Made by a program: the position numbers. 64,000 bases of DNA from Escherichia coli (GTDB taxonomy: Bacteria; Pseudomonadota; Gammaproteobacteria; Enterobacterales; Enterobacteriaceae): the NCBI RefSeq assembly GCF_024298765.1, contig NZ_CP101210.1; one strand, written 5' to 3'. How positions within the stretch are numbered: the stretch's first letter is position 1; every line of letters begins with the position of its first letter. Shown here piece after piece: positions 30,001 to 33,000 of this stretch.

Positions 30001-33000
30001 GGATACCCCAGATATGAGATATCTGAAGTGGTCTTTTTTGGCCTATGATACGGTCTTTGTTCCACGGTGACGTGTTCATACTCAAATCTCCTGCAATGTG
30101 GGAGATTTGAGTATGGTTGTCCTTATGAGCGAGGCGCGGAAGCTCACTTTAGGGCAATCTAATTCACATGTCAGAGGATTTATAAAAAGAGAATAGTGCA
30201 GATTTTAGGGATACTTACACTTGCTATGGCATACTTTTTGGGACCCCATCAGTTTAGGGATCTGAATCGCCACAGCTTTGGTAGGCACCTGCTTTATGGT
30301 CACGTGCACCCGAAGATCCTGCGGGTACGCATGGGTCACGAAAAGTACGAGTCTACAGAAGTTAATTTACGGTTTTTTGCGCTCGATGTGGCTGCCAGCT
30401 ACCAAGTCCAGTTTACACTGGATACAACTAACGCGCTGTAGCAACTGCGTGGTGGAAGCTGATTAAAGGAGATAATGATGTTCGATGTTGACGATACTGC
30501 ACCCGATACTCCCGCCCCCCGTGAACTCAGTCAGGATGTGCAGGCGCTGATCAACAATGGTCTGGATTTTCTGGATAAAGCCCGTGAAGAGTTGGAGGCC
30601 TCGAAGCCGAAGTTCTCCGTCGTCAGTTTCTGGACTGCGGTCGAGATTTTACTGAAAGTTCCGCTGGCGCACGAACACTGGTCGTTGGTCTGCAGCCCGA
30701 AAAAGCCAATAAAAAAGCAGGCTTACCTAGCCGGTGATTTTCAGTCGGTGACCTACGAAGAAACCCGTGAAAGGCTTAAGGACGTACTTGAAAGACCCCT
30801 AGACAGAGAAACGGACAGTGCTTTTGATAAGGTCAGAAAGCACCGCAACCGCGTAGTTCATTTCTACCACCCCACTTTCACCGAGGCTGAACAACGTCAA
30901 ATACTCAAAGAACAAGCTGACGCCTGGTTTGCCCTGAACCGGTTATTAAGGGATGAATGGAAAGTTATCTTCGGTGTCAAACATAATTGGAAGCTGGCTT
31001 TCGGTGAAACTCGTCTGATTAGGGGAAACAAATTTTATGCCGAGGTGCGGTTTAAACAGGTTAAGCCTGAACTCGAGCAGCTCTCTGAAAAGAATATTCA
31101 AATCGGTAACTGCAATGAGTGCCATCAGCATGCGACGGTAACAGGGACTGAAACGACCGGTAATGAAAACCGTAAGCTTGAAGTTACGCGGTGTAAGGTT
31201 TGCACCAGTGCTGTAAGGCAAATTACCCTAGTTTGTCCAGACTGCGAAATACCTCAATTGCTACCTGAGGGAGATAGTGATTTTGAATGCGAACACTGCG
31301 ACTACACTTCGGATAGGTATAAACTGCTGGATGAGGAGTTGTTCCACAGTGTGGATGAACAGCTACTCTCCGTATTTCCTGCTGGATGTACCAATTGCAT
31401 GACTCCTGAAAGCGTATGTAAATTTGGAGACGGCTATCTTTGCACTCAGTGTTTCATCTATTACACCGAGCTTCATGTATGTGGTTGTTGCGGTCACCTG
31501 AGCGATAGCGTTCCTGAACTGAGCCATATCCGAGGATGTGAATTTTGTGATGGTGACCAACGTTATTTTGATGACTGAATTACCATACATAATCTAGGCT
31601 CTTCAGGGATGGGTTGGACAGTCCGCTCCTGGCACAGAGCGGACTGTCAGATTAGATTCAGACCTGTACTCATTAGCTGATACAAATCAGCCACATATAC
31701 CTGCATTCCAAATAATTTCAGGCAGATATTATCTCCGTGAATCCCCCCGCCACCTTTCCGGTGCGCGGGGTTTTGTCTTTTTTCACCGGGAATACATGTA
31801 TGAATCCGTCTGATGCCATTGAGGCAATTGAAAAACCGCTCTCCTCCCTGCCTTACTCACTTTCCCGTCACATCCTGGAACATCTGCGCAAACTCACCAG
31901 CCACGAACCCGTGCCTGGCATTATGGGTAAAAGCGGGGCCGGTAAATCCTCACTCTGTAATGCACTGTTTCAGGGGGAGGTCACCCCGGTCAGTGCACTC
32001 ATGACAGCGCTTCCCGGACATGCCGCCATCCCTCTGATGACACGCCTGCAGGACGAACTGCGCACGGAGTCTGTCCGCACTCAGACCCGTGAACAGTTTA
32101 CCGGTGCGGTGGACCGGATATTTGACACGGCGGAGAGTGTCTGTGTTGCCTCTGTTGTCCGTACGGCCCTGCGCGCAGTTCGTGACACGGTGGTCTCTGT
32201 TGCCCGCGCGGTATGGAACTGGATTTTCTTCTGAACCCGGTGGTGATGTACCAGGCTGTTGTTACAGATTTTTAACTCCATGAAAACACTATGCAAACGC
32301 AGCTATACCCGGGGTGTCCCCTTGCGTTGTGCTTCCCAAGTTAATAGAATACATCGATCGTTACTATCATATCGATCGTTATAAACGATCGTTTGTAGTA
32401 AATGACCTCCTCCGTGGTTGTCATGAAAATGCGTCTCAGGAAGGTTAAATAATGCACGAAAAGAACATCGCCCTGCTTTGTGATGAAGCCGACCGACTTT
32501 TGCAACTGAACATTAATCTGCTCCGGCAAATGGTTGAGGAGCCAGATGTGTTATCTGACAGTAAGAACGAAAACAGACTGCTTTTTGATAAACAGAAAGC
32601 ACTGAAAAGAATTGAGGAGCTGGAGGGCGAACAAATCAAAACCGCCCGCAGGGAGATGGTGCTGGCTGTTGTCGGCACGATGAAAGCAGGCAAATCAACC
32701 ACCATCAACGCCATTGTGGGGCAGGAAATTCTGCCTAACCGTAACCGCCCCATGACCTCTGTACCGACGCTCATCCGCCACGTTCCCGGAAAAACTGAGC
32801 CGGTTCTCCATCTGGAACATATTCAGCCTGTCCGCAATTTATTAATCACACTGCAGGAAAAACTCGCCACCCCGGCAGGACAGCAGGTCGCACAGACCCT
32901 GCAGCAAACCGGGGATACCCGCGAACTGCTGGATATTCTGACGGATGATGGCTGGCTCAAAAATGAATACCACGGGGAGGAGGAAATCTTTACCGGACTG

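What the first reader, a model, noticed from the sequence alone, without database searches (positions are those of the whole stretch)
30475..31578. Stand-alone HEPN-like protein with four C-terminal CxxC zinc ribbons
The 367-aa protein has a helical N-terminal domain with an Rx4H motif (RKHRNRVVHF), as in HEPN RNases, followed by four zinc-ribbon-like CxxC...CxxC units. It has a strong ribosome-binding site, is bounded by palindromic repeats on both sides, and neighbours a small tyrosine recombinase. This architecture fits an abortive-infection toxin or sensor-effector.
Basis: partly seen in the sequence, partly recalled or inferred. Interest (0 to 1): 0.7.

Follow-up and report, generated by a model that had tools for sequence, protein, structure and literature searches.

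The report
Known HEPN anti-phage gene HEC-08

Summary
The ORF is real. Its protein (366 aa from the better-placed ATG at 30478) is residue-for-residue identical to WP_001313577.1. That is the E. coli ECOR52 protein which Payne, Hughes, Fineran and Jackson (bioRxiv 10.1101/2024.01.29.577857) cloned and tested as "HEC-08". They report that it lowers plaquing of coliphages and that mutating H128, the His of the Rx4-6H motif, abolishes defence. PADLOC's HEC-08 model matches over the full length (E 1.1e-173).

- The motif RNRVVH and the cysteines of all eight CxxC pairs are conserved down to about 26% identity.
- Neighbours differ in every context examined (prophage, integrative conjugative element (ICE), plasmid, island), so it is a one-gene system.

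The two flanking palindromes are real but unrelated to each other. The upstream one masks the ribosome-binding site and start codon of the neighbouring recombinase gene. The trigger, the RNA target and whether defence is abortive remain unknown. Verdict: interpretation supported, already known, low interest.

The parts
30467..30471 (+). Shine-Dalgarno sequence AGGAG
   Evidence: Read directly from the sequence. It lies 6 nt before the ATG at 30478 and 3 nt before the ATG at 30475.
30478..31578 (+). HEC-08 coding sequence (366 aa plus stop). An alternative in-frame ATG at 30475 would give 367 aa.
   Evidence: The translation is identical, 366 of 366 residues, to the HEC-08 protein WP_001313577.1 in Table S2 of bioRxiv 10.1101/2024.01.29.577857. 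PADLOC HEC-08 model: E 1.1e-173 over profile positions 7-357 of 358. RefSeq annotates this start.
30523..30972 (+). N-terminal HEPN domain (DUF3644 / EC042_2821 family), residues 17-166 in 367-aa numbering
30844..30861 (+). Predicted catalytic motif R-N-R-V-V-H (Rx4H). The His is H128 in 366-aa numbering and H129 in 367-aa numbering.
   Evidence: Read from the sequence. Invariant or nearly invariant across the family. Mutating H128 abolished defence according to the preprint.
31111..31203 (+). Zinc ribbon 1 (CNEC ... CKVC)
   Evidence: The four cysteines are invariant in alignments A1, A2 and A3. Beta-hairpins are predicted between the two CxxC knuckles.
31234..31299 (+). Zinc ribbon 2 (CPDC ... 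CEHC)
   Evidence: Cysteines are invariant, except that C271 (366-aa numbering) is only at least 90% conserved in distant homologues.
31387..31452 (+). Zinc ribbon 3 (CTNC ... CTQC)
   Evidence: Cysteines are invariant. There is weak sequence similarity to the zinc ribbon of ribosomal protein uS14 (E 0.013, not significant).
31480..31548 (+). Zinc ribbon 4 (CGCC ... CEFC)
31617..31648 (+). GC-rich hairpin 39 nt after the stop codon (12-bp stem, 8-nt loop, no T-run). Possibly a 3'-end or stabiliser hairpin of the transcript.
   Evidence: Inverted repeat found. The 102-nt region containing it folds at -34.8 kcal/mol, z -3.0. The terminator scan did not flag it because it lacks a T tail. Its function is inferred only.

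Best explanation
The gene is HEC-08, a one-gene anti-phage defence carried as cargo of the aspV genomic island.

Proposed mechanism: the N-terminal HEPN domain is the effector, a metal-independent RNase whose active site uses R123 and H128 of the RNRVVH motif. As in other single-HEPN proteins, two copies probably pair so that two motifs face one cleft. The C-terminal module of four Cys4 zinc ribbons is the regulatory or sensing part. It keeps the RNase quiet in uninfected cells and releases it on contact with a phage-derived cue, either a protein or a nucleic acid. RNA cleavage then stops phage production, possibly at the cost of host growth.

Shown in the preprint: a defence phenotype for this exact protein, and loss of defence in the H128 mutant.

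Shown here: sequence identity to the tested protein, the HEPN fold, conservation of the motif and of all zinc ligands, a compact and confidently predicted zinc module, and the absence of any conserved partner gene.

Inferred only: RNase activity, dimerisation, the sensor role of the zinc module, the nature of the trigger, and whether the outcome is abortive.
For: - Identity to the tested HEC-08 (WP_001313577.1, E. coli ECOR52).
- Published phenotype and H128 mutant.
- PADLOC HEC-08 model, E 1.1e-173 over the full length, and DUF3644 model, E 2.8e-71.
- DUF3644 / EC042_2821 is a HEPN family fused to zinc ribbons: PMC3710099.
- Motif and 16 cysteines conserved across 25-88% identity.
- A full-length family of about 350 aa is widespread: 206 clusters at 50% identity with E<=1e-30.
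- Neighbours differ in every context: prophage ends, ICE transfer genes, defence islands, plasmids.
- Intact at >=99% identity in 337 of 5426 complete E. coli genomes, so it is tolerated without a dedicated antitoxin.
- No nucleotidyltransferase-type antitoxin among the neighbours.
Against: - No RNase assay, RNA target, trigger or abortive-infection test exists in the literature I could search.
- Current Pfam-A gives no significant hit.
- The phages affected are shown only in figures that I could not read.
- The source is a preprint.
- The sensor role of the zinc module is pure inference, because the module has no structural relative.
Confidence: 0.85

Rival explanations
1. It is a back-up 'guard' nuclease that works only together with a restriction-type system (Hma or type I R-M). 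It would be held inactive by that system and released when a phage anti-restriction protein disables it, as for the HEPN anticodon nuclease PrrC with EcoprrI.
For: The family was discovered as genes embedded in Hma systems. The EC042_2821/DUF3644 family is reported in R-M operons. The preprint's discussion raises the PrrC analogy for embedded systems in general.
Against: - There is no R-M or Hma gene next to it in this window or in the nine other contexts examined.
- The preprint obtained defence from the gene alone in an E. coli K-12 strain deleted for R-M systems.
Confidence: 0.05
2. Its main natural target is plasmids or other mobile DNA rather than phages. It would act like the Ishtar HEPN proteins, which clear plasmid RP4 with little loss of viability, perhaps by cutting a replication primer RNA.
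For: Ishtar proteins are also single-gene systems with an N-terminal HEPN domain (DUF4145 or DUF3644) and an uncharacterised C-terminal domain. HEC-08 homologues sit on 203 plasmids, 111 of them conjugative, and within ICEs, where competition between elements is plausible.
Against: - E. coli Ishtar homologues are 212 aa with no CxxC array.
- They align to HEC-08 only over the 24 residues around the motif (E 0.048).
- WP_001313577 is absent from the Ishtar homologue table.
- Anti-phage activity of HEC-08 is directly reported.
- An anti-plasmid role has not been tested.
Confidence: 0.07
3. It is the restriction subunit HsdR of a type I restriction-modification system, as newer NCBI and RefSeq records label it.
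For: Many homologues carry the name 'hsdR'. There is a weak match to the N-terminal part of the EcoKI-type HsdR profile (NF008521, profile positions 60-126 of 1123).
Against: - The NF008521 match scores 12.5 bits against a curated cut-off of 729 (E 0.027) and covers 67 residues.
- The protein has 366 residues against a profile of 1123 positions.
- There are no hsdM or hsdS neighbours.
Confidence: 0.01
4. It is a selfish toxin that stabilises the island (an addiction module) and is linked to the neighbouring recombinase. The phage phenotype would be a side effect of over-expression.
For: It lies in low-GC island cargo next to a recombinase gene and a recombinase relic. The preprint used a plasmid with an added inducible promoter.
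Against: - There is no antitoxin partner, and neighbours vary.
- The recombinase is absent from other contexts.
- In strain GF130 the recombinase and the 5' end of the gene are deleted together, so loss of the gene is tolerated.
- According to the preprint, the defence is specific to certain phages and depends on the His.
Confidence: 0.02

Closest known systems
HEC-08 (Hma-embedded candidate 08; PADLOC-DB model PDLC04162; Payne, Hughes, Fineran and Jackson, bioRxiv 2024, 10.1101/2024.01.29.577857)
   Same: It is the identical protein, 366 of 366 residues, with the same RefSeq accession WP_001313577.1. The architecture is the same (HEPN plus zinc ribbons) and so is the H128 numbering.
   Different: Nothing differs in the protein itself. 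The context differs from the one that led to the family's discovery: here the gene is not embedded in an Hma system but sits alone in the aspV island of a B2-type E. coli, as in Nissle 1917.
EC042_2821 / DUF3644 family of the HEPN superfamily (Anantharaman et al. 2013, PMC3710099)
   Same: HEPN domain with an Rx4-6H motif, reported as fused to zinc-ribbon domains and associated with conflict systems.
   Different: That family is described as fused to wHTH and restriction-endonuclease domains as well, and as lying in R-M operons. This protein has only the zinc ribbons and no R-M neighbours.
Minimal HEPN toxins of HEPN-MNT (HepT/MntA) toxin-antitoxin pairs, e.g. SO_3166 (PDB 5yep), 7ae2, 8xdj
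   Different: There is no adjacent nucleotidyltransferase antitoxin. Instead there is a roughly 165-residue four-zinc C-terminal module, which the toxin-antitoxin toxins lack.
Ishtar (Ist1/Ist2) anti-plasmid HEPN proteins (bioRxiv 10.64898/2026.07.06.735840)
   Same: Single-gene immune proteins with an N-terminal HEPN domain (DUF3644 or DUF4145) and an uncharacterised C-terminal domain. They are found in variable regions.
   Different: It is a different family: about 212 aa, no CxxC array, and similarity confined to the motif region. The reported activity is against plasmid RP4, not phages.
AbiA, Csm6/Csx1 and other HEPN effectors of abortive-infection and CRISPR type III systems
   Different: Those use reverse-transcriptase/polymerase or CARF sensor domains, and cyclic oligoadenylate signals in the CRISPR case. 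Here the candidate sensor is a zinc-ribbon array with no known ligand.

Membership tests
HEC-08 (PADLOC) | Full-length match to the family profile | tested here: met
   PDLC04162: E 1.1e-173, 575 bits, residues 13-366 against profile positions 7-357 of 358.
HEC-08 (PADLOC) | Sequence relationship to the experimentally tested representative | tested here: met
   366 of 366 residues identical to the Table S2 protein. The 399-nt DNA excerpt is identical, starting at window position 30478. Same accession, WP_001313577.1.
HEC-08 (PADLOC) | Single-gene system (no obligatory partner) | tested here: met
   Neighbours differ in the window and in the loci L002-L011 and L014-L018.
HEC-08 (PADLOC) | Anti-phage activity that depends on the HEPN His | not testable with these tools
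   Reported for this exact protein in the preprint: reduced efficiency of plaquing, and defence lost in the H128 mutant. Not reproducible here.
HEPN superfamily | Helical-bundle HEPN fold | tested here: met
HEPN superfamily | Conserved Rx4-6H motif at the junction before the last core helix | tested here: met
   RNRVVH lies at residues 123-128 (366-aa numbering), between predicted helices 110-124/126-130 and 136-160. It is invariant or nearly invariant.
HEPN superfamily | RNase activity | not testable with these tools
   Inferred from the family and from the published His mutant. No biochemical assay was found.
Zinc ribbon (Cys4) | Two CxxC knuckles on beta-hairpins per unit, with conserved ligands | tested here: met
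   Eight CxxC pairs. All 16 cysteines are invariant or at least 90% conserved. Strands are predicted between the knuckles. Metal binding itself cannot be tested here.
HEPN-MNT (HepT/MntA) toxin-antitoxin | Adjacent minimal nucleotidyltransferase antitoxin gene | tested here: not met
   No such neighbour in the window or in the other contexts.
Type I R-M HsdR (current NCBI name for homologues) | SF2 helicase motor and nuclease domains, roughly 1000 residues, with hsdM/hsdS neighbours | tested here: not met
   NF008521 scores 12.5 bits against a cut-off of 729, over 67 residues only. No helicase or nuclease hit. No hsdM or hsdS nearby.
Ishtar anti-plasmid HEPN proteins | Homology over the full length, including the alpha/beta C-terminal domain | tested here: not met
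   BLASTP against an E. coli Ishtar homologue aligns only 24 residues around the motif (E 0.048). The accession is absent from their Table S3.

The most novel reading that the evidence does not exclude
The four-zinc C-terminal module, which has no relative among solved structures, may be a new kind of infection sensor. It would bind a specific phage or plasmid molecule directly and switch on the fused HEPN RNase. The same protein might then also restrict conjugative plasmids, as the unrelated Ishtar HEPN proteins do.
Probability: 0.3. Interest if true: 0.45.

Novelty: already known. Interest (0 to 1): 0.15.

Why it matters
It matters little as a discovery, because the exact protein has been cloned, shown to defend against phages, mutated at the catalytic His, and placed in PADLOC.

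Three things remain useful:
- Newer NCBI and RefSeq records call members of this family "hsdR". That name is wrong and could mislead defence-system censuses.
- The mechanism is still open: the trigger, the RNA target, whether defence is abortive, and what the conserved four-zinc module does.
- The gene is present in well-studied strains such as Nissle 1917 and ATCC 25922, which is relevant to phage susceptibility of probiotic and reference strains.

Tried and rejected
- Pfam-A scan of the protein: nothing significant, and DUF3644 is not hit by the current library.
- NCBIfam: only sub-threshold hits.
- Sequence search of PDB with a family profile: only weak zinc-finger and ribosomal zinc-ribbon hits, E >= 0.013.
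- Phage genome collection by tblastn: no match, although PHROGs has a full-length family, phrog_37794.
- Cluster look-up for names or taxa of distant homologues: uninformative.
- Rfam scan of 27.0-32.6 kb: no RNA family.
- Promoter scan: no sigma-70-like site upstream of the gene, and the overall count was not above shuffles.
- Idea that HEC-08 is an Ishtar family member, raised by the similar domain description: rejected.
- Idea that the two palindromes bound a mobile cassette: rejected, because they are unrelated in sequence and the upstream one belongs to the recombinase gene.
- I could not read which phages are restricted, because that information is only in the figures.

Full report
**What is in the sequence.** The window holds an open frame at 30475-31578 on the + strand, 367 codons. 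There are two adjacent ATGs. The AGGAG ribosome-binding site at 30467-30471 is 3 nt from the first ATG and 6 nt from the second, so the second (30478, 366 aa) is the better start. RefSeq uses it. RNRVVH at residues 124-129 (367-aa numbering) is the only Rx4-6H match in the protein. Eight CxxC pairs lie between residues 213 and 358.

**Identity.** PADLOC-DB gives a full-length match to its HEC-08 model (E 1.1e-173, profile positions 7-357 of 358). Its DUF3644 model matches residues 17-166 (E 2.8e-71). HEC-08 comes from Payne, Hughes, Fineran and Jackson, bioRxiv 10.1101/2024.01.29.577857.
- Their Table S2 lists the tested representative as WP_001313577.1 from E. coli ECOR52 and prints its sequence.
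- The window's translation from 30478 is identical to it at 366 of 366 residues, and the printed 399-nt DNA excerpt matches exactly at 30478.
- RefSeq annotates the same accession on the 100%-identical locus in other E. coli.
[quoted passage not shown] It counts HEC-08 among the systems that reduced plaquing when expressed in an E. coli K-12 strain lacking R-M systems. It also states that mutating the His of the Rx4-6H motif (H128) negated defence. H128 in their numbering is the His of RNRVVH here.
- DUF3644 was assigned to the HEPN superfamily (EC042_2821 family, fused to zinc ribbons among other domains) by Anantharaman et al. 2013, PMC3710099.

**Independent checks of the anatomy.**
- Close homologues: an alignment of 43 sequences (43-88% identity) shows H122, R123, N124, R125, H128 and all 16 cysteines of the eight CxxC pairs as invariant.
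- Distant homologues: a second alignment (25-45% identity) keeps N124, H128 and 15 of the 16 cysteines invariant, with R123 and C271 at least 90% conserved.
- Family size: an exhaustive search finds 1179 clusters (at 50% identity) with E <= 0.001 and 206 with E <= 1e-30, nearly all about 350 aa and aligned end to end. The two-part architecture is therefore an old and widespread unit.
- Whole-protein model: AlphaFold2 on the alignment gives pLDDT 86.9, with an all-helical region at residues 19-204 and beta-hairpins after it.

**Context.** In the window the gene lies in low-GC cargo (32-49% GC over 27.2-31.8 kb, against 52-57% in the flanks) of the island next to tRNA-Asp, as in Nissle 1917.
- Upstream, on the other strand, is a 200-202 aa protein consisting only of a tyrosine-recombinase catalytic domain.
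- Downstream is a truncated GTPase gene of the common island backbone, followed by a dynamin/RdcB/patatin operon.
- The gene is present at >=99% identity in 342 of 5426 complete E. coli genomes, always chromosomal, and 337 of them cover at least 80% of it.
- Homologues sit next to prophage integrases (L002-L004). They also occur in an ICE-type defence island with a reverse transcriptase, a kinase and a HEPN-Toprim gene (L006-L007), and beside a giant NERD-kinase-helicase gene (L008-L011).
- Further contexts are among ICE transfer genes (L014), in prophage accessory positions (L016-L017) and between housekeeping genes (L018).
- They are also on 203 plasmids, 111 of them conjugative. PHROGs holds a full-length family.
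- No neighbour recurs, so "stand-alone" is correct and the recombinase is incidental.

**The palindromes.** Two perfect inverted repeats exist but are unrelated in sequence.
- The upstream one (30077-30115) lies 360 nt from the gene. On the minus-strand transcript, its 3' arm GGAGAUUUGAGUAUG contains the ribosome-binding site and the AUG of the recombinase gene. The hairpin is very stable (-26.2 kcal/mol, z -5.6). It belongs to the recombinase gene.
- The downstream one (31617-31648) lies 39 nt after the stop codon. It is a plausible 3' hairpin of the HEC-08 transcript but has no T-run.

**Mechanism.** The best-supported reading is a self-contained sensor-effector.
- The HEPN domain is the RNase, with R123 and H128 as the active site. 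By analogy with HepT-type toxins and Csm6 (established knowledge of those families), it probably acts as a homodimer.
- The four-zinc module would regulate or sense.
- The protein is tolerated without an antitoxin in hundreds of genomes, which argues that it is silent until triggered.
- Only the defence phenotype and the His dependence are experimentally shown, and only in a preprint. RNase activity, dimerisation, the trigger and an abortive outcome are inferences.

**Rival readings.**
- A PrrC-like guard role tied to an R-M or Hma system is unlikely. The gene works alone in a strain without R-M systems and has no such neighbours here.
- An Ishtar-like anti-plasmid role is untested. Ishtar is a different family that shares only the motif region.
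- The NCBI label "hsdR" is a misnomer: 12.5 bits against a cut-off of 729, and no motor or nuclease domain.

**Verdict.** However, this is the very protein already published and catalogued as HEC-08, so it is already known and of low interest for discovery. The open questions are the trigger, the RNA target, and the role of the structurally unprecedented zinc module. No follow-up mechanistic study turned up in the searchable literature.

Noticed in passing
window 30077-30115 (hairpin); recombinase gene 29477-30079/30085 (-): A perfect 15-bp hairpin. On the minus-strand mRNA it pairs the Shine-Dalgarno GGAG and the AUG start of the small tyrosine-recombinase gene (-26.2 kcal/mol, z -5.6). It looks like a translational lock on the recombinase and is not a feature of HEC-08.
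   Followed up: partly
window 30196-30441 (+): An 81-codon ORF just upstream of HEC-08 resembles the C-terminal end of a tyrosine recombinase (the ...GHEKYEST... region). BLASTP against the neighbouring recombinase gives E 5e-4. It is probably a relic of a second recombinase gene.
   Followed up: partly
homologues in public records: Newer NCBI and RefSeq records give HEC-08 homologues the product name 'hsdR'. The proteins have about 360 residues, with no helicase or nuclease domain. The HsdR profile match is 12.5 bits against a 729-bit cut-off. This is an annotation error that could spread.
   Followed up: yes
window 27824-27898 (-): ARAGORN calls a tRNA-Gly(GCC) inside the 269-aa ORF at 27585-28394. 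Rfam finds no tRNA there at E <= 0.1. It is probably a false positive or a degraded relic.
   Followed up: partly
window 31737-32234 (+): A short ORF with a P-loop (GKSGAGKSS) is what remains of the 'GTPase family protein' (YeeP-like) gene that most E. coli carry at this point of the island backbone. The backbone similarity starts about 40 nt after HEC-08.
   Followed up: partly
window 32452-36817 (+): A three-gene operon: a dynamin-family protein (CrfC/YjdA-like, E 7e-170 but below the cut-off), an RdcB-family protein and a patatin-like phospholipase. PADLOC gives only weak matches, to LeoBC and to a phospholipase effector, each with E 1.6e-4. It might be a defence or membrane-remodelling module.
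   Followed up: no
window 27200-31800: GC content drops to 32-49% here, against 52-57% in the flanking siderophore-receptor cluster and dynamin operon. This marks HEC-08, the recombinase, the ETEC_3214-family gene (28512-29249, -) and the 269-aa ORF as separately acquired cargo.
   Followed up: partly
plasmid NC_016817.1 (Pantoea ananatis LMG 5342), 129786-130883: A 302-kb Pantoea plasmid encodes a protein 99.2% identical to the E. coli HEC-08. This implies very recent transfer between genera.
   Followed up: no
L012 (E. coli GF130, NZ_CP172140.1) 6077-6907: A deletion variant. The recombinase, the ETEC_3214 gene and the first ~270 bases of HEC-08 are missing, leaving a 276-aa 5'-truncated ORF annotated 'hsdR'. 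The gene can therefore be lost without harm.
   Followed up: partly
window 2796-12554 (-): A 1610-aa ORF with overlapping internal ORFs on the other strand, a pattern that suggests repeats. It lies alongside ORFs of 420, 715 and 415 aa on the same strand. Not examined.
   Followed up: no
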